A DNA stretch of 64,000 nt, taken from assembly GCA_937958695.1 (NCBI GenBank), contig CALGNK010000027.1, positions 44 through 64,043 of the forward strand, written 5' to 3'. This DNA comes from an uncultured bacterium. GTDB lineage: Bacteria > DUMJ01. The notes under the pieces were generated by a model. The model was not told the DNA's origin. It worked only from the letters and a program-made list of their open reading frames with translations, and did not search any database. Made by a program: the position numbers and the translations under genes. Numbering within the stretch: position 1 is the stretch's first letter; every line of letters starts with the position of its first letter. Positions 7,303 to 51,967 of the stretch are shown piece by piece.

Positions 7303-7306
7303 CTAT

Positions 7307-29592: not shown

Positions 29593-29594
29593 TA

Positions 29595-31910: not shown

Positions 31911-32353
31911 TTATCCTTCGATTCTCCTTCTAATATGGTAGGAAATCTCAAGCTTCTCACATCAATCTCTCTGATCTTTATGCCCTTTTCTCTAGCAGTA
32001 TTTAATATCTTTAATGTCAAATCTAATTTTCTATTTAGATTATTTAAATCTCCTAGTCTACAAGATATATCATTATAAAGTATAACATAAACTTCATCGT
32101 CTTTTATCTCTATCTTCTTTAGTAATGGAAGTTTCGTCTTAGGTAATTCCCTCTCTAGAATAGACATAACCATATTTTTCTTAGATAAAGGATAAACTTG
32201 AATCTTATCTAAAGCCAGATCATACTCTTCTCTTAGACTATACAGGTTTATATTCAACTTTATATCCTTCATTGGACTATTAATTCCCCATACCCCAGCA
32301 GTAACTGTAACAACTGTCAAAAACCATATAACCATTTCATATCTAGAACCCAA
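31907..32353 (-). CDS. Short FtsQ/DivIB-like cell division protein
   Basis: 148 aa with an N-terminal TM and a beta-domain-like C-terminus. Occupies the ftsQ slot after murB. Lacks an obvious full POTRA region. Confidence 0.45.
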   Translation of the reverse strand: MGSRYEMVIWFLTVVTVTAGVWGINSPMKDIKLNINLYSLREEYDLALDKIQVYPLSKKNMVMSILERELPKTKLPLLKKIEIKDDEVYVILYNDISCRLGDLNNLNRKLDLTLKILNTAREKGIKIREIDVRSLRFPTILEGESKDK

Positions 32354-38018: not shown

Positions 38019-38949
38019 TTATAAATACCCCCATAATACCAGCTAACAGAGTTAATAAGGAGAACCTTGTAACAACCTGTGGTTCGCTCCATCCTGAAAG
38101 CTCAAAATGATGATGAAGAGGGCTCATCTTAAATATTCTCTTTCCAGTAAGCTTAAAGTATGATACCTGAAGTATTACGGAGAGATTCTCAAGTATAAAT
38201 ATAATGCCTAGTATAATAATAAACCATTCTTTACCAAGCGCTACTCCTATCCCAGCCACGCTAGCTCCAAGGGATAAAGAACCTATATCGCCCATAATAA
38301 GCCTAGCTGGATGGGCATTATAGAAGAGAAATACTAGTAAGCCTCCAAGAATGGCTAAAGAGAACGCTATTACATTGAAATCCTTAAAAATCAGTAAAAC
38401 AAAAAATAGCAAGATAGTTATAATAGTTCCAGCTAAACCATCTACCCCATCTGTAAAGTTTACTCCGTTTGCTATACCCACTATAAATACCGTTTCCAAT
38501 AGATACTGCCAAAAGGTATCACCTGAGCGAAAGATAAGAAAGTCTCCCTTTAACTCAAAGATACCAAACCTTCTAATCATCCAGAGCCAAAAGAGTGTAA
38601 TGGTACATTCTGCTATAAACTTGTACCTACCCTTCAATGGTTGGGATGACCTTCTCTTTATCCCTGCATAGTCATCTATCCCGCCTATAACTGCGTAACC
38701 CGTTATTAAGGATAGTAGAGCCATTATTTCTCGTGTGGGGTATAGAATCAATAGTGTCAGTAAAGTACTTAAGAATATGACAAGTCCACCCATAGTTGGA
38801 GTCCCTTCTTTAGTTAAATGCGACTTAGGACCATAATCCCTTACATGTTTAGGAAGCAGAGACCTAAAATACTTTAAATAGAGCTTAAATCCAACTATAC
38901 TAAGAGTTAGCGAAAGAAAAAGGGTAAATATACATCTAGTGCTTATCAT
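38002..38949 (-). CDS. mraY: Phospho-N-acetylmuramoyl-pentapeptide transferase
   Basis: 315-aa polytopic membrane protein of the MraY/WecA family in the canonical dcw slot. Confidence 0.9.
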   Translation of the reverse strand: MISTRCIFTLFLSLTLSIVGFKLYLKYFRSLLPKHVRDYGPKSHLTKEGTPTMGGLVIFLSTLLTLLILYPTREIMALLSLITGYAVIGGIDDYAGIKRRSSQPLKGRYKFIAECTITLFWLWMIRRFGIFELKGDFLIFRSGDTFWQYLLETVFIVGIANGVNFTDGVDGLAGTIITILLFFVLLIFKDFNVIAFSLAILGGLLVFLFYNAHPARLIMGDIGSLSLGASVAGIGVALGKEWFIIILGIIFILENLSVILQVSYFKLTGKRIFKMSPLHHHFELSGWSEPQVVTRFSLLTLLAGIMGVFINGFKR

Positions 38950-40408
38950 TTATCCTCCTCTTAATAGCTTCTAAAGCCACCTCTCTATCATCAAAGTGGA
39001 TAGTTATATCTTTAAATATCTGATATGTCTCGTGTCCTTTACCAGCTATTACTACAATATCTCCAGGCTCTGCCATATTAATAGCACAATTAATTGCCTC
39101 TTTCCTATCCTCTTGTATGATATAGTTATCCTTCTCTACTCCACTAATTATATCTTCTATGATCTTTGCAGGGTCTTCACTGCGGGGATTATCAGAGGTA
39201 ATGATAGCAAAATCGGATAACCTAGTTGCTATATCTCCCATAATAGGTCTCTTAGTCTTATCCCTATCTCCTCCACATCCAAATACAACTATGACTCTTC
39301 TCCCCAAAGACTTAGCTACTTTAAGAACCCTCTCTAGTGCATCTGGAGTATGGGCATAATCTACTAAAACCTGAAATTGCTGTCCCAAATCTATGCGTTC
39401 TAACCTACCCCTTACAGGGTTAAATTCACAAACAGTTCTTAGTACCGTATTCATAGGAATTCCTACTTTATAGGAGTAACCAATAGCTGAAAGGATGTTA
39501 TATACATTTATCTCTCCTAAAAGCTTAGACTTTACCTTAAAATGTTCACCTTCTAGAATAAGATCAAAAGACAAACCATCTTTAGACACCTCTATATTTT
39601 TAGCAGTTATTAGAGCAGGTTCTCTTATACCATAAGTAATAGGATGCTTATCCCGGAATTCTTCAACTAATCTCTTACCATATGGATCATCAACATTTAT
39701 TACCATAATACCATTTTCTTCCTTTGAAACCATTTCAAATAGACGTCTTTTAGCACTAAAATATGATTCCATATCCTTATGAAAGTCTAGATGATCTTGG
39801 GTAAGATTGGTAAAGACACCTCCCTCAAAATAGACCGCATCCACTCTATGTTGAACAAGGGCATGAGAGGATATCTCCATCACAATCCTTTCTATACCTA
39901 ATGTTCTAGCCTTATCATATAGTTTAGCCAAGAGTAATTGTTCAGGAGTTGTAAAATTGGTAGGAAGATCCTCATCATATAGTCTAGCGCCTAGAGTACC
40001 TATTATGCCAATCTTCTCTCCATTAGCCTCTAAGATCTTGCCAATAAGATTTACGGTAGTAGTTTTACCATTGGTACCAGTAACACCGACAGTCTTTATG
40101 AGCCTAAACGGATTTCCATAGAAATTACTGCTTATAAAGGCGTATGCCTTCTTACTGTCTGAAACCCTTATATAAGGAAAATTTCCTGTCAATTCTTCTT
40201 CTCCTACTGTTACTATTGCCCCATTTGCAATAGCCTCTTCTATAAAGGAATGACCATCAAATTTCTCTCCTTTTAATGCTATAAACATATAATTTTTCTT
40301 AATATCCTTAGAATTACTACTAATACCTTCTATCTCTGTCCCATCTAGACTCTCTATATTTCTAATATCTACTATTTCCACATTCTCTATTAACTTTACT
40401 AGCTTCAT
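38936..40408 (-). CDS. murE: UDP-MurNAc-tripeptide synthetase MurE
   Basis: VGVTGTNGKTTTVNL P-loop. 490 aa. Confidence 0.85.
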   Translation of the reverse strand: MKLVKLIENVEIVDIRNIESLDGTEIEGISSNSKDIKKNYMFIALKGEKFDGHSFIEEAIANGAIVTVGEEELTGNFPYIRVSDSKKAYAFISSNFYGNPFRLIKTVGVTGTNGKTTTVNLIGKILEANGEKIGIIGTLGARLYDEDLPTNFTTPEQLLLAKLYDKARTLGIERIVMEISSHALVQHRVDAVYFEGGVFTNLTQDHLDFHKDMESYFSAKRRLFEMVSKEENGIMVINVDDPYGKRLVEEFRDKHPITYGIREPALITAKNIEVSKDGLSFDLILEGEHFKVKSKLLGEINVYNILSAIGYSYKVGIPMNTVLRTVCEFNPVRGRLERIDLGQQFQVLVDYAHTPDALERVLKVAKSLGRRVIVVFGCGGDRDKTKRPIMGDIATRLSDFAIITSDNPRSEDPAKIIEDIISGVEKDNYIIQEDRKEAINCAINMAEPGDIVVIAGKGHETYQIFKDITIHFDDREVALEAIKRRINDKH

Positions 40409-41910
40409 AGCCTCTCTCCTTTTAACTGTTCATCATATAACAATATCTCAGCTATCTCTTTAAACAACGGGGCTGCTGTATCAGAAGCCCACTTACTTAC
40501 TTTTGGCTCATCCAATATCACACCAATTATATATCTAGGAGAATAGGCTGGTAAATACCCCACAAAAGAAACGATATGTCTATCCATAGAATAACATCCA
40601 TCTATGACCTTCTGCGCAGTTCCAGTTTTACCTGCTATTTCTACCCCTTCTATTTTTGCTTTCTTACCAGTTCCATTCTCTACAACATTTACCAACATAT
40701 CGGTTATCTTTCTTGAGGTTTCAGAAGATATAACTTGGTTCAAACAATTATTACTGGACGTGGACTTAACGATTGTTGGTTTCACTATATATCCTCCATT
40801 TGCTATTGGAGCATAACTGGAAACTAACTGTAGAGCATTTACAGCTATCCCCTGACCAAAGCTATTCTGAGTAAGAGAAATGACATCTTTCCTGAGAGGA
40901 AGCATTCCGGATGTTTCACCAGCTATCTCTATGCCCAAGGGAGAGCCAAAACCAAACGAGGTAATATATCTATAGAAGATTTCTGTACCTATCTTCATCC
41001 CAACCTGAGCCATACCTATATTTGAAGAAACCTTGATGATCTCTTTCAGGGTCATATCATAAGACTCTACCTCATGAGGAGCATCTTTTATAGAAACTCC
41101 TTTAATTACAAAAGGTGGCTTACAGTTAAACTTTTCCTCTTCACCGACACACCTCTCCTCTAGGGCAATGGCAGCTACTACTGGTTTAAATGTCGAACCT
41201 GGCTCAAATATATCTTGGATAGCAAAATTTTTAGTCTGAGGAAAGTTTACCATTGCCAAGACTTCTCCAGTCCATGGAGACATAACTATAACAATAGCCT
41301 TATCAAATTTAAGGGATTCCTGACTATCCTCTAGTAGACCATATATCTTCGTCTGTAATATACTATCTATGCTGAGATAGATATCTTTTCCTCCCTTTAA
41401 TATGTTATCTAGGGCTAGCTCTACTCCACTTAAGCCATTATTATCAATATCAACGGTTCCTATAATCTCTCTTATATCATTACTTAGACATACACGTTTA
41501 TACTCTTCCTTCATAAAAAGCGCCCTTCTATTCAAAGATAAAAGCCTATTAGCAGTTTCTAAGTCCAACTTTCTCTCTATCCAAACAAATCTCAATTTCT
41601 CTTTTAATCTATCTATATAAACTTTAGGATCTTTATTTAATATACTTCCTATCTTATTGCCTAGTGTTACTGGATCATCCACCATATAAGGATCTGCAAA
41701 TATAGAATATCTCACTTCATTCATCACTATAACCTTGCCATTTCTATCATATATCCTTCCCCTTTCTACCTGAGTCTCCTCTGGTAGACATTCAAGTCCT
41801 AGCCTCAATCTCCAAATTACATGCCAGTAGAATAGCCCCAAACTTTCTATAATAAAAAACCCTATAAAAACTCCAATTAAGAACTTAACCCTACTAGTCC
41901 TCAATGCCAA
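40405..41910 (-). CDS. ftsI: Division-specific class B PBP (FtsI/SpoVD-type transpeptidase)
   Basis: N-terminal TM. STFKP, SSN and KTGTA motifs. Confidence 0.85.
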   Translation of the reverse strand: MALRTSRVKFLIGVFIGFFIIESLGLFYWHVIWRLRLGLECLPEETQVERGRIYDRNGKVIVMNEVRYSIFADPYMVDDPVTLGNKIGSILNKDPKVYIDRLKEKLRFVWIERKLDLETANRLLSLNRRALFMKEEYKRVCLSNDIREIIGTVDIDNNGLSGVELALDNILKGGKDIYLSIDSILQTKIYGLLEDSQESLKFDKAIVIVMSPWTGEVLAMVNFPQTKNFAIQDIFEPGSTFKPVVAAIALEERCVGEEEKFNCKPPFVIKGVSIKDAPHEVESYDMTLKEIIKVSSNIGMAQVGMKIGTEIFYRYITSFGFGSPLGIEIAGETSGMLPLRKDVISLTQNSFGQGIAVNALQLVSSYAPIANGGYIVKPTIVKSTSSNNCLNQVISSETSRKITDMLVNVVENGTGKKAKIEGVEIAGKTGTAQKVIDGCYSMDRHIVSFVGYLPAYSPRYIIGVILDEPKVSKWASDTAAPLFKEIAEILLYDEQLKGERL

Positions 41911-42269
41911 TCTTCAGGTAGTATAAGAACTCTATCGCTAGGTTGTAGATTTAGTCTCTTTCCTTCTTCTTTGAGTCGAAAAGGAGAAGTCAGTCTTTCT
42001 ACTTCTAATTTCAGGACTTCGTTCTTGATTGAAAGATTATCTATCGCCTCTTCTAGAGACCTTATCTCTTCTCTGTAAGATACAAGTCCATTATAGAGCC
42101 TTACCTGCAATAAACCTAAGGTAAGTATGCTAGTAAGTAATAGGACTAGAATAAAGGATGATCTTGCCCAAGGATATGTAGCCTTTTTTGGAATAATAAG
42201 CTGATGTTCCTGGGCTTTTTCTAATACTACATCTACATATAAGCTCTTTCTAGCTAAAACTTTACTCAT
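41901..42269 (-). CDS. ftsL: FtsL-like cell division protein
   Basis: 122 aa with a single TM followed by a coiled coil, between rsmH and ftsI. Confidence 0.6.
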   Translation of the reverse strand: MSKVLARKSLYVDVVLEKAQEHQLIIPKKATYPWARSSFILVLLLTSILTLGLLQVRLYNGLVSYREEIRSLEEAIDNLSIKNEVLKLEVERLTSPFRLKEEGKRLNLQPSDRVLILPEDWH

Positions 42270-43147
42270 AACTTCTCTAACCCCCTAAGTCTAGCGCTTC
42301 TTGCTCGCCTATTATTCAATATCTCTTCTCTACTTGGTTTTATGACAGATTTGGTAATAATTCTCTCTCTACTTTCCCTAAAAAAGTTCTTTACAATTCT
42401 ATCTTCTAAAGAATGGTAGGAAATAACACATAACCTTCCTTTTGATTTTAAAAGGGATAATGCCTGAATAAGAGCCTTCTTCAAATTTCCCAATTCATCA
42501 TTTATATATATTCTCAAAGCCATGAACGCTCTAGTAGCAGGATGTATTTTCCCTCTTCGCTTAACTACAGAACTAATTATCTCTGCTAATTCCTTAGTTG
42601 AAGATATCTCTTTCTTTTTTCTATATGCAACGATAGCATCTGCTATCTTATGGGCAAAAGGCTCCTCACCAAGATTTCTAAAGATACTCTCTAATTCTTC
42701 TAAAGAAAAGGTATTAATAACCTGATGAGCTGTTAAAGAGATATCAGGATCCATCCTCATATCTAATGGACCATCATTACTAAAACTGAAACCTCGCTCT
42801 GAATTTTCTAATTGTATAGAAGATATACCCAAATCAAAGAGAATCCCATCAAATCTTTCTATCCCTGTTTTAGAGATAAGTTCTGAAAGATTAGCGAAAT
42901 TTCCCAGAATAAGGGTAAATCTTCCTTTATACTCAGAGAGGACATTCTCCGCTTCACTTATAGCTATAGGATCCCTATCTATACCTACTAGATAACCATT
43001 AGGACTACTATGCTTTAGAATAGCCAGACTATGTCCTCCACCACCTAAGGTACAATCTAAATAAAAGCCTCCTGGTTTTACATCCATCAATTTTATCACT
43101 TCTTCTACCATTACAGGTTTATGGAGAAGTTTAGATTCCAATAGCAT
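42266..43147 (-). CDS. rsmH: 16S rRNA m4C1402 methyltransferase RsmH (MraW)
   Basis: DCTLGGGGHS SAM-binding motif. 293 aa. Confidence 0.9.
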   Translation of the reverse strand: MLLESKLLHKPVMVEEVIKLMDVKPGGFYLDCTLGGGGHSLAILKHSSPNGYLVGIDRDPIAISEAENVLSEYKGRFTLILGNFANLSELISKTGIERFDGILFDLGISSIQLENSERGFSFSNDGPLDMRMDPDISLTAHQVINTFSLEELESIFRNLGEEPFAHKIADAIVAYRKKKEISSTKELAEIISSVVKRRGKIHPATRAFMALRIYINDELGNLKKALIQALSLLKSKGRLCVISYHSLEDRIVKNFFRESRERIITKSVIKPSREEILNNRRARSARLRGLEKL

Positions 43148-43565
43148 TTATAGCATCTCCCATGCCCTTATAGAATTCTCTTGGGTCACCCAAATATTTG
43201 TCCCACAATTCGGCACTCCATACTTCTAGCCTATTAGAAACACCAATAATTACTACTTCCTTCTCTATCCTTGCATATTCTCGAAGATTTTTAGGTATAA
43301 GCAGTCTCCCCTGCGTATCTAATTCATCCTGAACAGCTCCTGAATACCAAAACCTCATAAATTTAAGGATATTGGGATTTGTTAAAGGTAAATTCCTCAG
43401 TTTTTCATCTATCCTATTCCACTCTGCCAAAGAAAAGATAAAGAGCGCATTATCAAACCCTCTAGTTATATAAAGGCCATCCTTCAATAGAGGTCTATAT
43501 CTAGAAGGAATTACAATCCTCCCTTTTTCATCTAAAGTATGTCTTACTTCCCCTGAAAATGTCAT
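43131..43565 (-). CDS. mraZ: Transcriptional regulator MraZ (start revised to ATG at 43565 from the track's GTG at 43592)
   Basis: MTFSGEVRHTLDEKGRIVIPSRYR matches the canonical MraZ N-terminus. Two MraZ half-domains are present. Confidence 0.85.
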   Translation of the reverse strand: MTFSGEVRHTLDEKGRIVIPSRYRPLLKDGLYITRGFDNALFIFSLAEWNRIDEKLRNLPLTNPNILKFMRFWYSGAVQDELDTQGRLLIPKNLREYARIEKEVVIIGVSNRLEVWSAELWDKYLGDPREFYKGMGDAINAIGI

Positions 43566-43568
43566 CCC

Positions 43569-43592
43569 CCACTTCTCTCCACTTTGAACCAC
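43569..43592 (-). promoter_or_regulatory. Three direct GTGG repeats at exact 10-bp phasing (MraZ-operator-like) immediately 5' of mraZ
   Basis: Plus-strand CCAC at 43569, 43579 and 43589 (reverse complement GTGGggg, GTGGa, GTGGt). A perfect TTGACA lies a little further upstream on the minus strand. Confidence 0.4.
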
Positions 43593-44481: not shown

Positions 44482-45357
44482 ATGGAAGATTACTTAGTAA
44501 AGGCTGCATCTAATGATTTATCCTTTACAGTAAGTATAGCCATAACTACAGAACTTGTAGAAAAAGCCCGAGAGGTCCATGAGACTAGTAAACTAGCTAC
44601 AGCTGCATTGGGAAGAGCCTTAAGTCTTGTTGGAATAATGGGAACAGAGTTAGAGGGCAAACAAACAGTGAGTCTTCAAATCATATCCAATGGACCACTA
44701 AAGGGGCTATTTGTTCAATCTGACGCAAGTGGAAACGTTAGGGGATATATAAAGAATCCATATATAGAACTGCCACCAAACGAGATAGGTAATATTGACG
44801 TAGAAAGCGGAATAGGGAAATCAGGTTATCTATATATAGTAAAAGATTTAGGATTTGGAAGTCCATACATAGGTATCACTCCTCTTATAAAAGGCGGTAT
44901 AGCAACAGATTTAGCTCATTACTTTTATACATCAGAGCAGACACCTTCAGTAGTAGCAGCTGGAGCCTATATAGGACCTAGCGGCAGGGTTGAAGCTTCA
45001 GGAGGAATGATTGGACGTATACTACCAGGGACAGCAATAGATAAAATAGAATTATTAGAGAAAAGGTTAGAAAAACTTCCTCCGTTAAGCGAACTCATAC
45101 GGGAGTTTGAATCTATAGAATCAATATTGAAGATAATCTTTGAAGATATACCCTATATAATACTGGAGAAGAGAAGTATAAGGTATCACTGTCCCTGTTC
45201 TAGGGAACGAGCTAAGACTACACTAATACTTTTAGGAAAAGATGAACTTTCCTCTATAATAGAAGAAGGCTCTGCAGAGGTAACCTGTGTTTTCTGCGGA
45301 AGAAGATACTATTTTGATAAAGAGGAATTAGAAGAGATATTAGCATCTATCGAGTAA
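44482..45357 (+). CDS. hslO: Redox-regulated chaperone Hsp33
   Basis: C-terminal zinc centre HCPCSRE...CVFCGRRY. 291 aa. Confidence 0.85.
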   Translation: MEDYLVKAASNDLSFTVSIAITTELVEKAREVHETSKLATAALGRALSLVGIMGTELEGKQTVSLQIISNGPLKGLFVQSDASGNVRGYIKNPYIELPPNEIGNIDVESGIGKSGYLYIVKDLGFGSPYIGITPLIKGGIATDLAHYFYTSEQTPSVVAAGAYIGPSGRVEASGGMIGRILPGTAIDKIELLEKRLEKLPPLSELIREFESIESILKIIFEDIPYIILEKRSIRYHCPCSRERAKTTLILLGKDELSSIIEEGSAEVTCVFCGRRYYFDKEELEEILASIE

Positions 45358-48196
45358 CCTTAAGAATTATAGATCTTGAAAAATCATCCCATATTCCTAG
45401 ATTAACTATCTTTCCTGGAGAAAGGAGAGACTGTAGTTTCTTTACCGCAGAATCAATATCATAATGGCTCCATCTTCTAATGTCTATATCCCAGAACTTT
45501 ACAGTATAACCGAGTTTATGAACTATATCTAATAAATCTCTATTAAATTTGTTCTGCGGTGGTCTAAAAAGTTTTATCTCTTCGTTTAATATATCCTCAA
45601 AAACTTTTTCTGCTCTTTTCAGACTAGAAATTATATATTCTCTAGGATAAGTTGTATAGTCTATATAATACTCCCCTAATAGACCTATCTTGTATCCCTT
45701 AGTTATCATCTCTTTCACTACATCCTTATGATAGGCTATGGCTTCTGCAGTAAAGAAGAACGTTCCTTTCAATCCTAACCTATCGAATATCTCTAAAATA
45801 TCCCTAACTTCTTCCTTAGGGTATCTAATCTCGAGGGTATACTCTACATAACTAGAATCTGGATTGGAAAATATAACACTAACACTATTAAATTCCCAAG
45901 GAATCTCGTAAAGATAAGCCTTAAGTCTATAATATTCTATACTACCAATCTTTTTATAATTACTATCTAACCAAGTCTTAATCTTCCCTTTCGGATCTGA
46001 ACTATACTCACCAGCCATTATATACCATACCCTTTTATAAGAATAAGTCGCCCTATATACGTCTACTGGGACATTACCAAAACCATCGATAGTAATATGC
46101 GGTAATTTACCCCTATCATAGTAAATAAATGGTCTATACATCTGAGGCGCAGTTATCAAGACCATATCACCATTTAAAGCGTTAGAATGTATATAATTCA
46201 CTAATTTTCGCCAAGGGCGTGATATAAAATCAAGTCTATTATTATAGTTATAGATACCTAATGCATTTATACACATTATAACGAGTAATATTAGGATAAC
46301 TACTGGGTAAAACTTAAACCTTCTAATTCCCCTCGCTAATAATATAAAATATCCAATAACAAATGGGGAAAGATACCTAGCACTAAAGAAACTCTTATCT
46401 AAAGAAAATAGAATCAATAAGAGAAAAGGCACAAATATATACAGGAAAACCAGGACAAAGCCTCTTTTTTCTTTGTATGGTGGAAATAATCCAAATAAAA
46501 ATATAGCTAAAAATAGAAAGAAGAGATAATCTAGTAAATTACCCTTAGCAAATATACTACGGGCATAACCCAGATTTATCTCTAAAAAGGAGTTTTTTAT
46601 AACTTCTAGAGTAAGGCTCTGTTTTCCTTGATATACCTCTGGAGTTCTGCTTTTCAATATTACATACATCCATGGTAAAAAAGCCATCGCTATAATGAGT
46701 TGATAGATCATCCATCTTTTCAATGTTTCTCTTTCTCTAAATTTGACCCAAAGTATATATAGGTTTTGCAGAAGCACAAGAAATACAGAATAGATATGGG
46801 TGTATAGAGACAGGATATTTATAAAAACTATACCCAAAAGAGTTCTCTTTTCGGATCTACATTCATTAATACTCCATATATAGATTAGATATATTGAGAG
46901 AATAGAAAAAAATGTAAGTAAGGGATACATTCTAGCCTCTTGTGAGTAATAGAATTGGAATGGGGAAAGAGCAAATAAAAGAGAAGAGATTATAGCTGTT
47001 ACCTGGTCAAAAACCTTATTAGCGAAGAGATAGATAAGCGGTATGCTTATTGTACTAAAGATAGCAGAAAAAGACCTTAAAGCTATCTCAGAATCTCCGA
47101 ATAACGATATCCAAAAATGGATAAAGATAAAATACAATGGAGGGTGTATCCCTGTAGAAGCCCTATTTAAAACTATATCCCTTATACTGCTCCAGGCAAG
47201 GTTTACAGTAATAGCCTCATCAAGCCAGAGACTTCTTATACCTATATTATAAAATCTTAAAATTCCACCCAATACTGTTATAAATACTGGAACAAGTTTA
47301 TTGTTTGTTAAATTCTTATTTATTGGGAATAATCCCCACAGAGCAGGTAGAGCGGTATTAATCAAAAATATCAAAAATGCTAAATTAAATGCGACAGTAT
47401 CTGGTATTCCAAATCTACCTAAAAGTAAAATCGAAAATCCCTCCCTTACACCCAACCCTCCAACAGTTATAGGAATAAGGTTAGCTAGCATTACTAGAGG
47501 ATATGCAACAAAGATCCCAAGATTAAATGTGTAACCAAAAGCCCTAAGTAAGAAAAGGGCTTCAAAAAGAACAAGGACATAGCTAGCTAACGTAATGGTT
47601 AAACAGAAGAGGATAATTTTTATACTTAAATTTCTGAGACCTTCTAGGAATTGAGGATATCTTTTGAGTACTGGAAGTCTAAAAAGTATAACTAAGCATT
47701 TTGGTTTGAGGATAAAGAAAAGGAATCCAATAGTTACTAAGGTTATTAATATAAAGATATAAGGACCTAAGAAATACCAAATTCCACCTAAAGAAAGAAA
47801 AACTACTATTAGTAGGTCAAAAATCTTATCCCACAAAACCAAGCCTAAGCCTGCAAGTTTTTTATCATTTGGAATCCCAACTATTCGACCAACTTCTCCT
47901 ATCCTGCCTGGGGTTATTATACCTAAAGACATCCCAGACAGATATCCATCTATAGAGGATAAAAGAGAAACATTTGGGTCTAAATTCTTAATCAAAAGAT
48001 GCCATTTATATATCTTAAGAAGTGTAAATAAAAGGCCAATCAAAAAGGCTATAACAAAGAATAAAAGTCTAATCTTAGCAAAAGAGTTTAAAATGGAATC
48101 TAATGGTACCTTTTTAGAGATAAAATAGATTATATAAATGGTAACTAAGAGTTTAGTTAGATTTAACAGTAAGTTCCTTTTTCCCTTCAGCATCAT
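45347..48196 (-). CDS. Tripartite membrane protein: N-terminal flippase-like (LPG_synthase_TM/UPF0104) domain, GT-C glycosyltransferase (GT39/GT83, PMT/ArnT-like), C-terminal CE4/NodB-like domain with degenerate catalytic motifs
   Basis: Residues 1-300 are multi-TM with GxxGExGR-like motifs (ITPGRIGEVGR; TVGGLGVREG). The middle region has the first-loop acidic motif LWLDEAITV and many TM helices. The C-terminus has RLGLKGTFFFTAE (TFDDG replaced), LFRPPQNKF (RPPxG-like) and GYTVKFWDIDIRRW (DxxDW-like). Confidence 0.65.
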   Translation of the reverse strand: MMLKGKRNLLLNLTKLLVTIYIIYFISKKVPLDSILNSFAKIRLLFFVIAFLIGLLFTLLKIYKWHLLIKNLDPNVSLLSSIDGYLSGMSLGIITPGRIGEVGRIVGIPNDKKLAGLGLVLWDKIFDLLIVVFLSLGGIWYFLGPYIFILITLVTIGFLFFILKPKCLVILFRLPVLKRYPQFLEGLRNLSIKIILFCLTITLASYVLVLFEALFLLRAFGYTFNLGIFVAYPLVMLANLIPITVGGLGVREGFSILLLGRFGIPDTVAFNLAFLIFLINTALPALWGLFPINKNLTNNKLVPVFITVLGGILRFYNIGIRSLWLDEAITVNLAWSSIRDIVLNRASTGIHPPLYFIFIHFWISLFGDSEIALRSFSAIFSTISIPLIYLFANKVFDQVTAIISSLLFALSPFQFYYSQEARMYPLLTFFSILSIYLIYIWSINECRSEKRTLLGIVFINILSLYTHIYSVFLVLLQNLYILWVKFRERETLKRWMIYQLIIAMAFLPWMYVILKSRTPEVYQGKQSLTLEVIKNSFLEINLGYARSIFAKGNLLDYLFFLFLAIFLFGLFPPYKEKRGFVLVFLYIFVPFLLLILFSLDKSFFSARYLSPFVIGYFILLARGIRRFKFYPVVILILLVIMCINALGIYNYNNRLDFISRPWRKLVNYIHSNALNGDMVLITAPQMYRPFIYYDRGKLPHITIDGFGNVPVDVYRATYSYKRVWYIMAGEYSSDPKGKIKTWLDSNYKKIGSIEYYRLKAYLYEIPWEFNSVSVIFSNPDSSYVEYTLEIRYPKEEVRDILEIFDRLGLKGTFFFTAEAIAYHKDVVKEMITKGYKIGLLGEYYIDYTTYPREYIISSLKRAEKVFEDILNEEIKLFRPPQNKFNRDLLDIVHKLGYTVKFWDIDIRRWSHYDIDSAVKKLQSLLSPGKIVNLGIWDDFSRSIILKVTR

Positions 48197-49778
48197 ATCT
48201 TCTTATTATTTTTATCTCATTTTTCATTGGCTCTACTACATCAATAAATGTAGATAGGTCTTGTATCTGGAAATACCTAGAAGATGGGATATAGATATAT
48301 GGATTTTCAATTCCAACGATAAGCCTTTCTATATCCTCAGGAGAATTAACAGTATCTTCTATTGTAATACAGGTATCAGATATCTCTATATTTCTATTTA
48401 CCTGAATATCACTCCTAGATTTATATGTTATAAGCATCCTTCTAAGTAAGTTCTTTATCTTAAGGCTCAGAGATGTAAATCTTCCTAGTGTAAACTGGAA
48501 TAATCGAGAAAGTATAAATTCTTTAGATCCCATAGTCTTGTAAGATAGCTTTAACATATTGGTTTTAACTGATATTTTCCCTTCTCTTATGTTGAAGGTC
48601 TCTTCCTGCCTAAGCCATCCGCTAGAATAGAGATTATCTCCAATCTTTACAATAACTCCACTATCATTGATAGAAAGGCCACTTTTCCTAATAGTTAATC
48701 TAAATACTCCACCCTTTTTCAGGTTAGAGACAAAGTAGAAACTCTTATTACTTATGATAAGTAGCCCTGAATTCCTAAAGAATTTGTTAAACTCGCTTTC
48801 ATACAGAGGGGGTAATAGATTCCCATCATATATATCCATATGTGCCTGTAAGTACGTATATCCTATATAAGAGAGATACCTATCATCTAAATTATACGGA
48901 CCTATTGTCCCTCTTTTCTCTAAAGAATTCCTTAGTACAAAAGCTATTCTCCTTGCATTTTCGTTCCAATGGCTCGAATACTCTATCCCAGATGGTATTA
49001 TATATTTGGTATTTCTAGATCCATACTCTCCACCAAAGGTTCCATCTGGATGGATAAAATAGGCAAGAAATTCTAGCGCTTTATCTATCATATCCCTAGC
49101 TAATAAATCTTTTGATTTATAATGATACTTACAGAGATAATCTATAGCTAGAGATAGATATCCTATATCTGGTCCTCCATACTCAGGAAACCATCCTTCG
49201 CTATTTTGTCTCTCTCTTAATTGTTTTAACTTCCCAATAGCTCCATCCTCATACTTCTTCTCACCAGTAATAAGGTAAACATTATATAGCGCAGAAACAG
49301 AACCTGCCACTTGGTTACAGGCAGTAAAATCTGTATATGACAGTAACCAGTCGGAAGCCTTCTTAAGACCTATTACAACTTCATTATAAGAAGGAACTTC
49401 TCTACCAAGTATCAATAGTGCCTCTGAAACCGCATAAGTGGTAAAGGCAGTAGCAACAAAACTATGCTCATTTGGATACCATTCATTAAAAGAACCATCT
49501 TTATTCTGTATCTTGAGCCAGAATCTTAGTGCTCCATCTATCCAGCTAAAGATACTCTCTCTTTTATAATAGATATTGTTAGGGAAATCATATTCATAGA
49601 GTAAAACTAAAGTAAGAACAGCCTCTTGAAACCTAGAACAGGAAAAATCTACCACATTATAGTGCCAAAACTGCCTATCAAAAGAACCAAATGTTGGACT
49701 ATTGGGATTTTTGTCTAGTAAACCTAGTAACCTCGGTATCTCTTTTAGAATAACATCTAAATATACACTACTCTTCAA
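48153..49778 (-). CDS. Hypothetical cytoplasmic protein, possibly an (alpha/alpha)-toroid plus beta-sandwich (heparinase II/III-like) fold. Function unknown.
   Basis: 541 aa with no signal peptide. Helix-rich N-terminal half (NEWYPNEHSFVATAFTTYAV; GWFPEYGGPDIGYLSLAIDYL) and a beta-rich C-terminal half. Overlaps both flanking genes. Confidence 0.35.
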   Translation of the reverse strand: MKSSVYLDVILKEIPRLLGLLDKNPNSPTFGSFDRQFWHYNVVDFSCSRFQEAVLTLVLLYEYDFPNNIYYKRESIFSWIDGALRFWLKIQNKDGSFNEWYPNEHSFVATAFTTYAVSEALLILGREVPSYNEVVIGLKKASDWLLSYTDFTACNQVAGSVSALYNVYLITGEKKYEDGAIGKLKQLRERQNSEGWFPEYGGPDIGYLSLAIDYLCKYHYKSKDLLARDMIDKALEFLAYFIHPDGTFGGEYGSRNTKYIIPSGIEYSSHWNENARRIAFVLRNSLEKRGTIGPYNLDDRYLSYIGYTYLQAHMDIYDGNLLPPLYESEFNKFFRNSGLLIISNKSFYFVSNLKKGGVFRLTIRKSGLSINDSGVIVKIGDNLYSSGWLRQEETFNIREGKISVKTNMLKLSYKTMGSKEFILSRLFQFTLGRFTSLSLKIKNLLRRMLITYKSRSDIQVNRNIEISDTCITIEDTVNSPEDIERLIVGIENPYIYIPSSRYFQIQDLSTFIDVVEPMKNEIKIIRRYDAEGKKELTVKSN

Positions 49779-50715
49779 TTCCCACTTCTTCCACTATGTA
49801 GTATTCTTCCTTTTGTCCATGAGTTAGATTATTGATCATCTCTCCTAGCAATCCTATAGAAAGAGTTTGAATTCCTAATATCATGCATAGAACACCAAGA
49901 GTAAGAAGAGGCCTATTACCTATGAGGGCACCAGTCAAAAATTTATAGAATACTAGATATAAATTTATAATAAAACCAACAATAAACAATAAAACTCCAG
50001 CTGAACCAAATACATGCATAGGCCTCTTTATAAACCTTGTAAGGAATACAACAGTAAAAAGGTCTAAAAAACCTTTAAAGAGTCTCTCCCAGCCATACTT
50101 AGAGGTCCCAAATCTTCTAGGATGATGTGTTACAACAAGTTCTCCTACTGTAAACCCTTTGCTATAGGCTAAAGCAGGTATATAACGGTGAAGTTCACCG
50201 TAAATATCTAGAGATTTCACAACTTCATTTCTATATGCTTTAAAACCACAATTAAAATCATGAATCTTTACTCCGGTAATCCAAGATGTAAGTTTATTAA
50301 AGAATCTAGAAGGTAAAGTTTTACTCGGGGGATCATGACGTATCTTCTTCCATCCAGAAACTACATCATAACCCTTATTAATCATCTCTATAAATCTAGG
50401 TATCTCTGTAGGATCATCCTGTAGGTCTGCATCCATAGTGATGACTATACTACCCTTAGCCAACTTAAAACCAGCAGAAAGTGCGCTAGACTTACCAAAG
50501 TTTCTCCTAAATCTTACCCCCTTTACTCTACCATCTTCCTTACCCAATCTTTTTATCAACTCAAAAGATCCATCAGTACTGCCATCATCTATAAAAATTA
50601 TCTCAAAAGATAATCCTAGAGGAGAAGTATTCTCTACTATTCCTTTATATAGCGACTCAATAGTCTCTACTTCATTTTTTAGGGGAATCACAAAAGACAC
50701 ATCATACTTATTCAT
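49768..50715 (-). CDS. GT2 polyprenyl-phosphate glycosyltransferase (Dpm1/ArnC/GtrB/CsbB-like) with C-terminal TM helices
   Basis: VIPLKNE...IFIDDGSTDGS...TMDADLQDDP (DXD) motifs. Two C-terminal TM segments are typical of ArnC/GtrB. Confidence 0.8.
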   Translation of the reverse strand: MNKYDVSFVIPLKNEVETIESLYKGIVENTSPLGLSFEIIFIDDGSTDGSFELIKRLGKEDGRVKGVRFRRNFGKSSALSAGFKLAKGSIVITMDADLQDDPTEIPRFIEMINKGYDVVSGWKKIRHDPPSKTLPSRFFNKLTSWITGVKIHDFNCGFKAYRNEVVKSLDIYGELHRYIPALAYSKGFTVGELVVTHHPRRFGTSKYGWERLFKGFLDLFTVVFLTRFIKRPMHVFGSAGVLLFIVGFIINLYLVFYKFLTGALIGNRPLLTLGVLCMILGIQTLSIGLLGEMINNLTHGQKEEYYIVEEVGIEE

Positions 50716-51967
50716 TATTAAAACCTCCTAGGAAAAGAAGTACTGCTCCCTGCCCATGTAGAAAAGACCCTAATCTTCTCTTTGCATAATAAATATAATC
50801 CCCAGGACCTGTCCCTTCAGATACACCTAATACGTCTCCCTCTTGGCTAATTCTAGTCTTTATTCCTTTAATAGCCTTACTTACCACATCCATATAACTT
50901 TCACCTACTATTCCTAGTTTGATAGCCCTATATATCCCGTATCCCAAAAGGGCACTACCAGATGTTTCTAAATAAGTGTCTTTCATATTTATAAGTGTAC
51001 GCCACAAACCCGATTTATCTTGAAACTTACTTAAGATACCAATAATATTCTTTACAATAGATCCTATATAATCTTTATCTTCCTCTTCTATATAAGGAAA
51101 TATTTCTACTAATGTAGCCAACATCCATCCATTCCCTCTTGCCCAATAATGCTGTGTTAATGAGAGCGTATTCTCATCCCAGGCATGGTAAAAGAGGGAT
51201 ACATTTGGATTCATTAGGTATTTTATATGGATATATAATTGTCTCAAACCTTCCTCCCTATAGGGCCCCCCCAACCTAACCATAAATGGACATATCATAT
51301 AAACTGTATCAATCCATAGTTGTCTAGTCCCCGACTCGTGCACAATACCACCAGAGGGGAGTCTATCTTTATAGGATAGTATAAAATCACCAAGTTCTTT
51401 AGCCCTTTCTAGATACTTTTCTTCTTTAAACATATCATAAAGGGTCAAAAGGACATCACCTATAGCACATTCATTTACATTCTTTGGCTTTATACCTCTC
51501 TCTATATACCTATCTACCAAAGCCTTTACATATCCCCAATTGCCAGTAGCAAGTAGTCCCTTCATTGCCACAGTCTGTCCCCAAGAATAACCTACAACCC
51601 CGTTTTTTATAGTTCTTTTTGCTATTAGCCTGGTTAGCTCAAGATTATCTAGGGCTAAATTTTTATTCGTTACTCTTAAAAGAGGATAAGAATTATATTT
51701 ATTTTCTATTGCCTGCATTATACGAATAGCCCTATCTATATAGATCTCTGCATTACTAATTCTTCCAGTTTTAAATTCATTCTTAGCTCTAATTATAAGA
51801 TTCTCTACCTCTGTCAAGTCCCAGCCCTTTGACCACTCTACCCTCATATTATGGAATTTGGTTTCTGCATAGGAAAGTTTTTCTAAAAAGTTTCCCGCAT
51901 TAAGGTATCTACAAATCCAGAACATTAATATAGAAATCTGTATAAAAACTATTATCACCTTTTTCAT
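50708..51967 (-). CDS. Glycoside hydrolase family 88/105-like (unsaturated glycuronyl hydrolase fold) with N-terminal membrane anchor
   Basis: QLWIDTVYM, HAWDE, WARGNGWMLATLVE and LETSGSALLGYG match the Glyco_hydro_88 (YteR/UGL) signature regions. N-terminal hydrophobic segment. Confidence 0.65.
   Translation of the reverse strand: MKKVIIVFIQISILMFWICRYLNAGNFLEKLSYAETKFHNMRVEWSKGWDLTEVENLIIRAKNEFKTGRISNAEIYIDRAIRIMQAIENKYNSYPLLRVTNKNLALDNLELTRLIAKRTIKNGVVGYSWGQTVAMKGLLATGNWGYVKALVDRYIERGIKPKNVNECAIGDVLLTLYDMFKEEKYLERAKELGDFILSYKDRLPSGGIVHESGTRQLWIDTVYMICPFMVRLGGPYREEGLRQLYIHIKYLMNPNVSLFYHAWDENTLSLTQHYWARGNGWMLATLVEIFPYIEEEDKDYIGSIVKNIIGILSKFQDKSGLWRTLINMKDTYLETSGSALLGYGIYRAIKLGIVGESYMDVVSKAIKGIKTRISQEGDVLGVSEGTGPGDYIYYAKRRLGSFLHGQGAVLLFLGGFNNE

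What the first reader, a model, noticed from the sequence alone, without database searches (positions are those of the whole stretch)
45347..48196. Single 949-aa polypeptide fusing a flippase-like domain, a GT-C glycosyltransferase and a degenerate CE4 deacetylase-like domain
Three activities normally on separate proteins are fused here. In Arn (ArnE/F, ArnT, ArnD), Gtr or CsbB/YfhO/GtcA systems the lipid-linked sugar flippase, the periplasmic GT-C transferase and the deacetylase are separate. The CE4-like tail has lost the TFDDG Asp-Asp (it reads TFFF) but keeps RPP- and DxxDW-like motifs, so it may be a pseudo-enzyme or carbohydrate-binding module, or use different chemistry. I do not recall this flippase-GT-C-CE4 architecture being described.
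Basis: partly seen in the sequence, partly recalled or inferred. Interest (0 to 1): 0.75.

Follow-up and report, generated by a model that had tools for sequence, protein, structure and literature searches.

The report
Flippase-glycosyltransferase fusion with inactive deacetylase tail
One 949-residue membrane protein of an uncultured Dictyoglomus relative joins a lipid-flippase-like domain to a membrane sugar-transferase and adds a catalytically dead deacetylase-like domain outside the cell membrane; it is a rare, real variant of a known cell-surface sugar-decoration pathway, not a new kind of system.

Summary

TFDD aligns to T-L-E-I-R, not to "TFFF". Four of the five CE4 catalytic motifs are broken; only the motif-3 Arg survives. 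The tail is nevertheless under purifying selection (dN/dS 0.17).

The gene closes a conserved cassette: ArnC/GtrB-like GT2, then a ~540-aa unknown protein, then the fusion. Gemmatimonadota encode GT2, flippase-like and GT-C as separate adjacent genes. Dictyoglomus has the flippase-GT-C fusion without the tail. The three-domain form occurs in only 13 protein clusters from one uncultured lineage.

Best reading: this is the flippase and transferase of a three-component periplasmic glycosylation system in one chain, plus an extracytoplasmic PdaB/BA0150-like pseudo-deacetylase that probably binds glycan. Sugar and acceptor are unknown; neighbouring genes hint at a uronic acid and LPS.

Verdict: new variant of a known kind, moderate interest.

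The parts
45347..48196 (-). Whole 949-aa ORF (stop codon included): flippase-like + GT-C + post-TM soluble domain + CE4-like tail
47312..48196 (-). aa 1-295: MprF-type flippase-like (PF03706 / PplT / UPF0104) membrane domain, with two re-entrant motifs (TPGRxGE at aa 95-101 and PITxGGLGxRE at aa 242-252)
46238..47311 (-). aa 296-653: GT-C transmembrane glycosyltransferase module (PMT_2; GT39/GT83-like)
47216..47221 (-). D326-E327: invariant acidic pair in the first extracytoplasmic loop, right after GT-C TM1 (context W324-L-D-E). This is the position of the catalytic DE/DxD motif of GT-C enzymes.
   Evidence: Invariant in 18 of 18 sequences. Assigning it as catalytic is inference from established knowledge of GT-C enzymes.
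45902..46237 (-). aa 654-765: alpha/beta soluble domain after the last TM helix. It is shared with the two-domain Dictyoglomus proteins, which end here. It is the counterpart of the periplasmic C-terminal domain of ArnT-like GT-Cs.
   Evidence: The most conserved segment (71% mean pairwise identity).
45350..45901 (-). aa 766-949: NodB/CE4-fold tail of PdaB/BA0150 type, lacking catalytic and metal-binding residues
45818..45841 (-). aa 786-793 'YTLEIRYP': the true counterpart of CE4 motif 1 (TFDDG). Catalytic Asp has become E789 and the metal-binding Asp has become I790.
   Evidence: Alignments. Conservation.
45653..45688 (-). aa 837-848 'IGLLGEYYIDYT': counterpart of motif 2 (HSxxH). Both metal-binding His are lost (L840, Y844).
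   Evidence: Similar to the PdaB-like proteins P0168 and P0169.
45542..45571 (-). aa 876-885 'LFRPPQNKFN': motif 3 (RPP), retained
45461..45499 (-). aa 900-912 'KFWDIDIRRWSHY': counterpart of motif 4 (WxxDxxDW). D905 is kept and the Asp of 'DW' has become R908.
45383..45409 (-). aa 930-938 'IVNLGIWDD': counterpart of motif 5 (IVLxH). The catalytic-acid His has become G934.
48153..49778 (-). Conserved 541-aa middle gene of the cassette. It overlaps the fusion's start by 44 nt. Weak alpha/alpha-toroid (lyase-like) signals; no obvious N-terminal hydrophobic segment by inspection; function unknown.
49768..50715 (-). GT2 with two C-terminal hydrophobic helices (read directly from the sequence). ArnC/GtrB/PgfS-like candidate polyprenyl-phosphate sugar synthase.
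   Evidence: PF00535 E 6e-31. ArnC model NF007986 186 bits, below its cut-off of 529. Sequence.
50708..51967 (-). GH88-family protein with an N-terminal hydrophobic anchor. It lies directly upstream of the GT2 in the window and in all four distinct related three-domain loci examined, and not in the Dictyoglomus loci examined.

Best explanation
The gene encodes the membrane half of a three-component extracytoplasmic glycosylation system, condensed into one polypeptide.

Proposed mechanism:
1. The ArnC/GtrB-like GT2 two genes upstream loads a sugar from a nucleotide sugar onto polyprenyl phosphate at the cytoplasmic face.
2. The N-terminal MprF-type (PF03706) domain moves the polyprenyl-phosphate-sugar to the outer leaflet.
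3. The GT-C module, using the invariant D326/E327 loop on the outer face, transfers the sugar to an envelope acceptor.

The C-terminal NodB/CE4 domain lies outside the cytoplasmic membrane and is not a deacetylase. It descends from the PdaB/BA0150 branch, which had already lost its metal site, and it has since lost the remaining catalytic residues. It is kept under selection as a non-catalytic module. Most likely it binds or positions a glycan, either the acceptor or the cell wall. Its groove carries three arginines that canonical CE4 enzymes lack at these positions (R791, R907, R908), plus the retained motif-3 R878, and conserved Trp and Tyr residues.

What is shown and what is inferred:
- Shown: the domain identities, the fusion, the loss of catalytic residues, purifying selection, the conserved cassette, and the existence of a split version elsewhere.
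- Inferred: flipping of a polyprenyl-P-sugar by the PF03706 domain, the outside location of the tail, and its binding role.
- Weakly inferred: a sugar derived from UDP-glucuronic acid and an LPS or envelope-glycan acceptor.
For: Domains and folds.

Cassette. GT2, then a ~540-aa protein, then the fusion, with overlapping reading frames, is conserved in the window, in the three-domain relatives L001, L006, L007 and L014, and in Dictyoglomota L003, L009, L013 and L015.

Links between the three components:
- Gemmatimonadota L019 encodes GT2, PF03706 and PMT_2 GT-C as three separate adjacent genes, followed by a Wzy_C gene.
- Parcubacteria L044 has PF03706 followed by a weakly GT-C-like gene (Glyco_transf_22, 19.3 bits, below its cut-off).
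- GT2-PF03706 fusions (AglD) and PF03706/GT-C/GT2 neighbourhoods are described in archaea (PMC5898192).
- A GT2-GT-C fusion was seen here (P0111).

GT-C competence. W324, D326 and E327, the TGIHPP motif and the EARMYP motif are invariant in 18 sequences.

Topology.
- Loop 621-630 averages 4.0 K/R and 0 D/E across 18 sequences and is followed by a single TM helix (630-653).
- Loops 484-494 and 570-578 are also positive.
- Helix 530-549 is amphipathic.
- ArnT aligns over 416 residues.
- The nearest CE4 relative, BA0150, is listed as N-terminally membrane-anchored, which I take to mean its NodB domain is extracytoplasmic (PMC6115787).

Tail is inactive. MT1, MT2, MT4 and MT5 substitutions are shown. 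BA0150 contains no metal and is catalytically inert, and BA3943 is a described CE4 pseudoenzyme (PMC6115787, PMC10967932).

Tail is functional. dN/dS is 0.17, against 0.12-0.13 for the other domains. 31 of 42 invariant tail residues fall in the motif windows that line the NodB groove (hypergeometric p about 9e-10).

Hints about the sugar and acceptor. A TuaD-like UDP-glucose 6-dehydrogenase lies next to the cassette in L001, L003, L010, L012 and L015, in different arrangements. A GH88 gene and a lyase-like toroid gene are in the operon. The D. thermophilum cassette lies about 1.3-5 kb from heptose-synthesis, GT9 heptosyltransferase and Wzy_C genes.
Against: - No flippase activity on polyprenyl-phosphate sugars has been shown experimentally for any PF03706 protein. 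Known substrates are glycerolipids (MprF; proposed for HexF and GpgF).
The topology rests on the positive-inside rule and on analogy.
- The helix count between EL1 and loop 484-494 only fits if one short helix (354-366 or 398-418) does not cross the membrane.
- No glycan-binding assay or ligand-bound homologue exists for BA0150-type domains.
- The hints about the sugar conflict. UDP-Glc dehydrogenase points to a uronic acid. A YdjC deacetylase directly downstream in L008, L009 and L013 points to an amino sugar.
- The GT2 scores far below the ArnC and PgfS equivalog cut-offs.
Confidence: 0.6

Rival explanations
1. The CE4-like tail is still an enzyme that uses non-canonical, metal-independent chemistry. 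For example, E789 could act as base with R791, R907, R908 and tyrosines. It would modify the transferred sugar or the acceptor (de-O-acetylation, de-N-acetylation or another hydrolysis) right after transfer.
For: The groove residues that replaced the catalytic set are nearly invariant and the tail is under purifying selection. A carboxylate (E789) persists at the position of the catalytic base. Metal-independent NodB-fold enzymes exist, such as PuuE allantoinase 3CL6 (PMC10967932). Deacetylases recur beside PF03706 flippases (HexSDF, PMC10128005; GpgSDF, PMC12713373) and beside this cassette (YdjC in L008, L009 and L013).
Against: All three metal ligands, the motif-4 Asp and the motif-5 catalytic His are replaced together. 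PuuE-type enzymes keep the motif-4 Asp and the motif-5 His (PMC10967932). The closest solved relatives, BA0150 and BA3943, are catalytically inert or described as pseudoenzymes (PMC6115787, PMC10967932).
Confidence: 0.12
2. The PF03706 domain does not flip the polyprenyl-phosphate sugar donor. It translocates or scrambles a glycerolipid or glycolipid, and that lipid is the acceptor which the GT-C then glycosylates on the outer leaflet (a lipid-modifying machine comparable to MprF, HexSDF or PimE).
For: Every PF03706 protein with experimental data handles glycerolipids, and MprF from P. aeruginosa is reported to be a promiscuous scramblase (PMC11980842, title and abstract seen; PMC10128005; PMC12713373). 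GT-C enzymes that glycosylate lipids exist; ArnT and PimE both appear among the structural matches.
Against: The conserved GT2 partner of ArnC/GtrB type creates a need for a donor flippase, and no GtrA, SMR or MATE-type flippase gene is present in the cassette. The split GT2 / PF03706 / GT-C gene order in L019 mirrors Gtr-type operons. The two readings are not mutually exclusive.
Confidence: 0.15
3. The system is a PMT-like protein O-glycosyltransferase. The GT-C glycosylates secreted or S-layer proteins rather than LPS or polysaccharide, and the tail tethers the enzyme to the wall.
Against: There is no MIR domain. The C-terminal alpha/beta domain is ArnT-like. Neighbours point to LPS-core and uronic-acid metabolism in several genomes. 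All scores are far below any equivalog cut-off, so the acceptor class cannot be read from homology.
Confidence: 0.12
4. The fusion is an artefact: a frameshift, a mis-assembly or a read-through of two or three separate genes.
For: None found. One apparently free-standing homologue (P0125) exists.
Against: The continuous ORF is seen in 13 clusters from many independent samples and assemblers. The junction is conserved. One confident model covers the whole chain. P0125 lies on a contig in which many genes are broken by frameshifts.
Confidence: 0.01

Closest known systems
Two-domain PF03706-GT-C proteins of Dictyoglomus / Dictyoglomaceae (P0014-P0025, about 758 aa, annotated 'flippase-like domain-containing protein')
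   Same: They are orthologous over aa 1-765 (44-49% identity). They share the GT2 / ~540-aa / fusion cassette with the same overlapping starts, and the same invariant GT-C and flippase motifs.
   Different: They end at the 'YLYE' of the post-TM domain and have no CE4 tail. No CE4 relic lies nearby. No GH88 gene lies upstream. Some have a YdjC deacetylase gene directly downstream instead.
Three-component periplasmic glycosylation systems (GtrA/GtrB/Gtr*; CsbB/GtcA/YfhO; ArnC/ArnE-F/ArnT; the MATE-dependent GT136 system, PMC11127046)
   Same: The logic is the same: a GT2 polyprenyl-phosphate sugar synthase, a flippase, and a GT-C transferase acting outside the cytoplasm. The GT2 is ArnC/GtrB-like and the GT-C has an ArnT-like fold.
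   Different: The flippase candidate belongs to a different family (MprF-type PF03706, not GtrA, SMR or MATE) and is covalently fused to the GT-C. A conserved ~540-aa protein of unknown function is an extra component, and a dead CE4 domain is appended.
Archaeal AglD and the PF03706 / GT-C (arCOG00563) / GT2 neighbourhood (Makarova et al. 2015, PMC5898192)
   Same: The same three protein families are associated. PF03706 was predicted to be the flippase of a glycosylation pathway, and fusion of the flippase-like domain to a pathway enzyme occurs there too.
   Different: In AglD the fusion partner is the cytoplasmic GT2, not the GT-C. AglD is archaeal and acts in S-layer N-glycosylation. It has no CE4 domain.
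BA0150 (PDB 4M1B) / PdaB-type and BA3943 CE4 pseudoenzymes of Bacillus
   Different: BA0150 is a free-standing, N-terminally anchored protein that keeps the motif-1 catalytic Asp, the motif-4 Asp-Trp and the motif-5 His. The tail has lost those too, scores below the PdaB equivalog cut-off (97.8 against 237.4 bits), and is fused to a GT-C.
ArnD / NaxD / LgmC-type deacetylases or deformylases of lipid A aminosugar pathways, and HexSDF / GpgSDF operons
   Different: Those enzymes are active and separate proteins, and they are cytoplasmic or of undetermined location. The tail is catalytically degenerate, only 10% identical to ArnD, gave no ArnD HMM hit, and is inferred to be extracytoplasmic.
RgtE / RgtA-D,F galacturonic-acid modification of rhizobial and Aquifex LPS (PMC7663294)
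   Same: A GT2 makes bactoprenyl-phosphate-GalA from a UDP-GlcA-derived donor, and ArnT-like GT-Cs add it to lipid A or the core. This matches the UDP-Glc dehydrogenase and LPS-core neighbours seen here.
   Different: No specific sequence relationship to Rgt proteins was tested. The uronic-acid donor here is only a hint from gene context.

Membership tests
CE4 / NodB polysaccharide deacetylase (PF01522) | NodB (beta/alpha) barrel fold and a sequence match to the family HMM | tested here: met
CE4 / NodB polysaccharide deacetylase (PF01522) | Motif 1 TFDDG: catalytic-base Asp and metal-binding Asp | tested here: not met
   It aligns to T787-L-E789-I790-R791, and this is conserved in 12 orthologues.
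CE4 / NodB polysaccharide deacetylase (PF01522) | Motif 2 H(S/T)xxH: two metal-binding His | tested here: not met
   The His positions are L840 and Y844.
CE4 / NodB polysaccharide deacetylase (PF01522) | Motif 3 RxPY/RPP: Arg that orients the catalytic base | tested here: met
   F877-R878-P879-P880 are invariant.
CE4 / NodB polysaccharide deacetylase (PF01522) | Motif 4 DxxD(W/Y): buried Asp that tunes the catalytic His | tested here: not met
   The sequence reads W902-x-x-D905-I-R907-R908-W909. The Asp of 'DW' has become Arg.
CE4 / NodB polysaccharide deacetylase (PF01522) | Motif 5 LxH: catalytic-acid His | tested here: not met
   The sequence reads I-V-N-L-G934, so the His has become Gly.
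PdaB / YbaN sporulation CE4 (TIGR02764 equivalog) | Score above the curated equivalog cut-off | tested here: not met
   This is the best NCBIfam hit, but 97.8 bits is below the cut-off of 237.4. The tail is related to this family, not a member of it.
ArnD (Und-P-Ara4FN deformylase) | Sequence membership and the active-site set of a metal-dependent CE4 | tested here: not met
GT-C glycosyltransferase (PMT_2; GT39/GT83-like) | HMM match and a multi-TM GT-C fold | tested here: met
GT-C glycosyltransferase (PMT_2; GT39/GT83-like) | Acidic catalytic motif in the first extracytoplasmic loop after TM1 | tested here: met
   W324, D326 and E327 are invariant in 18 of 18 sequences, directly after helix 301-315.
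GT-C glycosyltransferase (PMT_2; GT39/GT83-like) | Uses a polyprenyl-phosphate-linked sugar donor | not testable with these tools
   Supported only by the adjacent ArnC/GtrB-like GT2.
ArnT (Ara4N transferase) specifically | Equivalog-level sequence similarity plus the Arn operon (ArnA, B, C, D, E, F) | tested here: not met
   There was no ArnT NCBIfam hit. No ArnA, ArnB, ArnD or ArnE/F genes are in the cassette. The resemblance is fold-level only.
MprF flippase domain / PplT (PF03706, UPF0104) | HMM match and fold | tested here: met
MprF flippase domain / PplT (PF03706, UPF0104) | Lipid translocation activity | not testable with these tools
   Inferred from family membership and gene context only.
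Three-component extracytoplasmic glycosylation system | A GT2 polyprenyl-P-sugar synthase, a flippase and a GT-C encoded together | tested here: met
   The window cassette spans 45347-50715. It is conserved in 8 related loci. A split version exists in L019.

The most novel reading that the evidence does not exclude
The covalent flippase-GT-C fusion is a substrate-channelling 'flip-and-transfer' machine. The MprF-type domain hands the polyprenyl-phosphate sugar directly to the GT-C active site. The dead NodB domain is a new kind of acceptor-selecting module on a GT-C enzyme, a pseudo-deacetylase re-used as a lectin for an anionic envelope glycan. This would give the first tractable single-chain system for demonstrating which protein flips polyprenyl-phosphate monosaccharides, a step that is still unproven for Gtr-, Arn- and Csb-type pathways.
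Probability: 0.25. Interest if true: 0.7.

Novelty: new variant of a known kind. Interest (0 to 1): 0.5.

Why it matters
The flippase step is the weakest link in three-component glycosylation pathways. [quoted passage not shown] For GtrA and ArnE/F-type candidates, my own recollection is that the assignments also rest mainly on genetics and gene context.

This fusion is Rosetta-stone evidence that MprF-type PF03706 domains serve bacterial GT-C pathways:
- The PF03706 domain is joined to a GT-C in one chain.
- The same parts are split into adjacent genes in another phylum.
- Fusion to the GT2 is already known in archaea.

It also offers a thermophile-derived single polypeptide, modelled with high confidence, that is well suited to cryo-EM and proteoliposome assays.

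The tail adds a clear example of a carbohydrate-esterase fold kept under selection after losing four of its five catalytic motifs. It is attached to a transferase rather than free-standing. That is useful for understanding what BA0150/PdaB-type pseudo-deacetylases do.

It also corrects partial automated names. Sources call these proteins variously 'flippase-like', 'YbhN', 'mannosyltransferase' or 'Ara4N transferase-like'.

Tried and rejected
Rejected. Alignments to 4m1b, 7y51 and 6hm9 place TFDD at T-L-E-I-R. TFFF is beta-strand 2.
- **Frameshift or mis-assembly origin of the fusion.** Rejected.
- **A free-standing flippase homologue (P0125) as a natural split form.** Rejected. Its contig is riddled with broken genes. 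A genuine split form was found instead in L019.
- **An ArnB-like aminotransferase next to the Dictyoglomus cassette.** Rejected. It is a NifS cysteine desulfurase.
- **Structure of the 541-aa middle protein.** The single-sequence model was unusable (pLDDT 41). Profile searches gave only weak alpha/alpha-toroid hints: Pec_lyase in 9 of 9 members with best E 2e-6, and heparinase II/III at E 0.47.
- **AFDB50 fold search for other full-length three-domain proteins.** The library was not available.
- **Sequence search of the flippase domain, and of the whole-protein profile, against the PDB.** Only CE4 entries were found, with no MprF or GT-C at the sequence level.
- **Word-indexed homologue search with the tail alone.** It returned only three weak hits. 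The exhaustive representative search was needed.
- **Promoter and terminator scan of the operon.** Counts were not above shuffled controls.
- **Literature searches for PF03706 or LPG_synthase_TM together with flippase.** These found nothing relevant. 'UPF0104/YbhN' found the useful papers.
- **Window YdjC homologue (8173-9069).** Its neighbours (GT4, ManC, NAD synthase) do not link it to this cassette.

Full report
**1. Observation**

Window 45347..48196 (minus strand) is one ATG-initiated ORF of 949 codons without internal stops.

Pfam finds three domains, all above their gathering thresholds:
- PF03706 LPG_synthase_TM, aa 13-288, 111.7 bits.
- PF13231 PMT_2, aa 351-510, 52.9 bits.
- PF01522 Polysacc_deac_1, aa 792-899, 64.2 bits.

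Foldseek agrees.

**2. The fusion is genuine, and rare**

A search of 5.8 billion clustered proteins found the same three-domain architecture in 13 clusters (946-961 aa, 54-100% identical), from NCBI, ENA, JGI and Logan assemblies. The junction is conserved.

The next relatives are 12 clusters of about 758 aa from Dictyoglomus and Dictyoglomaceae (44-49% identity). They carry only PF03706 + PF13231 and stop exactly where the tail begins. Beyond those, only plain GT39-like GT-C proteins match (30% identity or less, over the GT-C part only).

A scan of one genome for each of 185,579 GTDB species was limited to two peptide patterns. It found the three-domain form in three unclassified 'bacterium' MAGs (L006, L007, L014) and the two-domain form in seven Dictyoglomota MAGs.

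An exhaustive HMMER search of 1.84 billion representatives with the tail alone gave 4,297 hits. Among the best 150, the only protein carrying the match at the C-terminus of a ~950-aa protein was this family's own representative. No separate CE4 gene or relic lies near the two-domain genes.

Source annotations are partial and automated: 'flippase-like domain-containing protein' (MBC7319482.1), 'YbhN (UPF0104)', 'mannosyltransferase', 'Ara4N transferase-like'.

**3. The CE4-like tail, corrected**

Residue-by-residue alignments to 4m1b, 7y51 and 6hm9 show that TFDD corresponds to T787-L-E789-I790-R791. 'GTFFFTA' (aa 811-817) is the following strand, which reads 'ATFF' in genuine CE4 enzymes.

| Motif | Canonical role | In this tail |
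|---|---|---|
| MT1 | catalytic Asp, metal Asp | E789, I790 |
| MT2 | two metal-binding His | L840, Y844 |
| MT3 | Arg-Pro-Pro | kept (R878) |
| MT4 | first Asp; Asp of 'DW' | D905 kept; R908 |
| MT5 | catalytic His | G934 |

So the metal triad, the acid and its tuning Asp are all gone. The only change that is not drastic is base Asp to Glu.

The nearest relatives are themselves degenerate. BA0150 contains no metal and is catalytically inert, and it is thought to derive from MurNAc deacetylases. BA3943 is a described CE4 pseudoenzyme (PMC6115787, PMC10967932). Free-standing PdaB-like proteins P0168 and P0169 share the motif-2 replacement pattern G-x-x-G-(E/Y)-x-Y.

**4. The tail is not decaying**

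- Among 12 three-domain orthologues, the tail averages 57% pairwise identity. The other domains average 63-71%.
- For the one pair not saturated at synonymous sites (window against L006), dN/dS is 0.17 for the tail and 0.12-0.13 for the others.
- 31 of the 42 invariant tail residues fall in the six motif or strand windows, which make up 59 of 175 columns (hypergeometric p about 9e-10). Caveat: I chose the windows after seeing the alignment, and strand ends are conserved for folding reasons too.
- The replacement residues are nearly invariant: T-(V/L)-E-I-R-Y-P, G-x-L-G-(E/L)-x-Y-x-D, F-R-P-P, F-W-x-x-D-(I/V)-R-R-W, N-L-G-x-W-D. They put three arginines not found at these positions in canonical CE4 enzymes (R791, R907, R908), alongside the retained R878, and several Trp and Tyr residues where a zinc site used to be.
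- Inference: the former active-site groove is retained as a binding site, plausibly for an anionic sugar or phosphate.

**5. Topology (inferred, not measured)**

- The invariant W324-x-D326-E327 follows helix 301-315 directly. In all characterised GT-C enzymes this acidic loop is extracytoplasmic (my own knowledge of the family).
- Across 18 sequences, loops 484-494 (net +3.8), 570-578 (+1.6) and 621-630 (4.0 K/R, 0 D/E) are strongly positive.
- Helix 530-549 is amphipathic, with 4 charged residues.
- One hydrophobic helix (630-653) follows the most positive loop. This places residues 654-949 outside.
- For this to fit, one of the short helices 354-366 or 398-418 must not span the membrane. 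The result is a PMT-like 7+4 arrangement.
- Supporting points: ArnT aligns over 416 residues. BA0150 is listed as N-terminally membrane-anchored (PMC6115787), which I take to mean its domain is extracytoplasmic. Fusing such a domain to an outside-facing C-terminus simply replaces its anchor.
- I put the outside location at about 85%.

**6. Genomic context**

The gene is the last in a run of overlapping minus-strand genes: prfB, a YceG gene, GH88 (50708-51967), GT2 (49768-50715), a 541-aa gene (48153-49778), then the fusion.

- The GT2 has two C-terminal hydrophobic helices. Its best matches are ArnC (186 bits, cut-off 529) and PgfS. This is the polyprenyl-phosphate glycosyltransferase class, although it is not an equivalog of either.
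- The core of GT2, ~540-aa protein and fusion, including the overlap of about 41-53 nt at the fusion's start, is conserved in the three-domain loci L001, L006, L007 and L014 and in Dictyoglomota L003, L009, L013 and L015.
- In Gemmatimonadota L019 the parts are separate, adjacent genes: GT2 (4871-5947), PF03706 (5470-6891), PMT_2 GT-C (6875-8281), followed by a Wzy_C gene.
- In Parcubacteria L044 a PF03706 gene precedes a weakly GT-C-like gene (Glyco_transf_22, 19.3 bits, below its cut-off).
- Makarova et al. (PMC5898192) predicted PF03706 as a flippase from archaeal neighbourhoods with a PMT/STT3-like GT-C and AglD-like GT2, and from the GT2-PF03706 fusion AglD.
- P0111 is a GT2-GT-C fusion. 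So all three pairwise fusions of the three components now exist. That is a consistent Rosetta-stone argument that they form one pathway.
- Hauser et al. (bioRxiv 10.1101/2022.03.11.483950) list 148 architectures for this domain. They name GT-A, GT-B, kinase and O-antigen-ligase partners among the common ones, but not GT-C or CE4.

**7. Hints about the sugar and the acceptor (weak)**

- A TuaD-like UDP-glucose 6-dehydrogenase abuts the cassette in L001 (downstream), L010 and L012 (downstream), and L003 and L015 (upstream, divergent).
- GH88 is the unsaturated glucuronyl hydrolase family. It precedes the GT2 in every three-domain locus examined.
- The ~540-aa protein gives weak but consistent alpha/alpha-toroid, lyase-like signals: Pec_lyase in 9 of 9 orthologues, plus DUF4962 and heparinase II/III.
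- Together these point to uronic-acid chemistry. The RgtE/RgtD galacturonic-acid modification of LPS is a functional precedent (PMC7663294).
- In D. thermophilum the cassette lies about 1.3-5 kb from heptose-synthesis, GT9 heptosyltransferase and Wzy_C genes.
- Against a simple picture: a YdjC-family deacetylase sits directly downstream of the two-domain gene in L008, L009 and L013. This is the family of NaxD, which deacetylates undecaprenyl-phosphate-GalNAc (PMC10927774; the YdjC assignment of NaxD is my own recollection).
- The window's own YdjC homologue is 36 kb away, in an uninformative context.

**8. Mechanism proposed**

1. The GT2 charges polyprenyl phosphate at the inner face.
2. The fused PF03706 domain translocates the lipid-linked sugar.
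3. The GT-C transfers it outside, using D326/E327.
4. The pseudo-NodB tail binds glycan, either to select or hold the acceptor or to tether the enzyme to the wall.

Steps 1-3 follow from family knowledge plus context. No PF03706 protein has been shown to flip a polyprenyl-phosphate sugar. The role of the tail is inference.

Rivals considered:
- A non-canonical active tail (0.12).
- The PF03706 domain acts on a glycerolipid acceptor (0.15).
- A protein acceptor, as in PMT enzymes (0.12).
- An artefact (0.01).

**9. Comparison and novelty**

It works like Gtr/Arn/Csb-type three-component systems. It is an orthologue of the Dictyoglomus two-domain proteins with an added tail.

It is a member of the GT-C (PMT_2), PF03706 and NodB-fold families. 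It is not a member of ArnT, ArnD or PdaB equivalogs, and not a catalytic CE4, because four of the five motifs failed the test.

The system type, the flippase-GT-C association and CE4 pseudoenzymes are each known. What seems undescribed is a dead PdaB-like NodB domain fused to the extracytoplasmic end of a flippase-GT-C protein. This judgement is limited to the open-access library and databases searched here.

Verdict: real, correctly spotted, partly mis-read. It is a new variant of a known kind, with interest 0.5.

Noticed in passing
window 48153-49778 (-): A 541-aa protein is conserved between the GT2 and the fusion in every cassette (50-78% identity across 9 orthologues, with many invariant residues). 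It has no Pfam hit above threshold, only weak alpha/alpha-toroid or lyase-like signals (Pec_lyase, DUF4962, heparinase II/III, GH88, squalene cyclase). No N-terminal hydrophobic segment is obvious in the sequence. It is a conserved fourth component of unknown function.
   Followed up: partly
window 45347-45357: The fusion gene and the convergent Hsp33 gene (44482-45357, + strand) overlap by 11 nt at their 3' ends.
   Followed up: no
window 48153-48196; L001 8001-8044; L003 8001-8041: The fusion's start overlaps the end of the upstream 541-aa gene by 41-44 nt here and in distant relatives. This suggests conserved translational coupling.
   Followed up: partly
window 50708-51967 (-): A GH88-family protein with an N-terminal hydrophobic anchor lies directly upstream of the GT2 in the three-domain lineage (window, L001, L006, L007, L014) and not in the Dictyoglomus loci examined. 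It therefore co-occurs with the CE4-like tail.
   Followed up: partly
L008 5116-6000; L009 8359-9261; L013 8359-9252; window 8173-9069 (+): A YdjC-family carbohydrate deacetylase gene sits immediately downstream of the two-domain flippase-GT-C gene in three Dictyoglomota MAGs. The window has a 54%-identical homologue 36 kb away, after GT4, ManC and NAD synthase genes.
   Followed up: partly
L001 10905-12194; L003 2837-4138; L010 4800-6089; L015 2109-3395; L012 from 8305: A TuaD-like UDP-glucose 6-dehydrogenase is adjacent to the cassette in five loci, in different orientations. None was found in the 64-kb window.
   Followed up: partly
window 56523-60173 (-); L003 10274-13963: A ~1,220-aa TPR + DUF3857 + transglutaminase-core (+ DUF3858) protein is the convergent neighbour of the fusion gene in D. 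thermophilum. In the window it lies about 8 kb upstream.
   Followed up: no
P0158 (1288 aa), P0159 (1654 aa): These proteins carry five tandem CE4 domains. P0158 mixes canonical units (TFDDGD / HGYSH) with degenerate ones (TISDITS / GNQSYQH).
   Followed up: no
L005 (JGI Ga0065718_1004955): This Dictyoglomus-like contig has many genes split by frameshifts, which produces spurious 'stand-alone' flippase-like and truncated proteins (for example P0125).
   Followed up: yes
window 28564-43592 (-): A complete division/cell-wall (dcw) gene cluster (mraZ, rsmH, ftsL-like gene, PBP, murE, mraY, murD, ftsW, murG, murC ... ftsA, ftsZ) lies just beyond Hsp33 and the Mrp/NUBPL ATPase. Several gene names are assigned by eye from the translations.
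   Followed up: no
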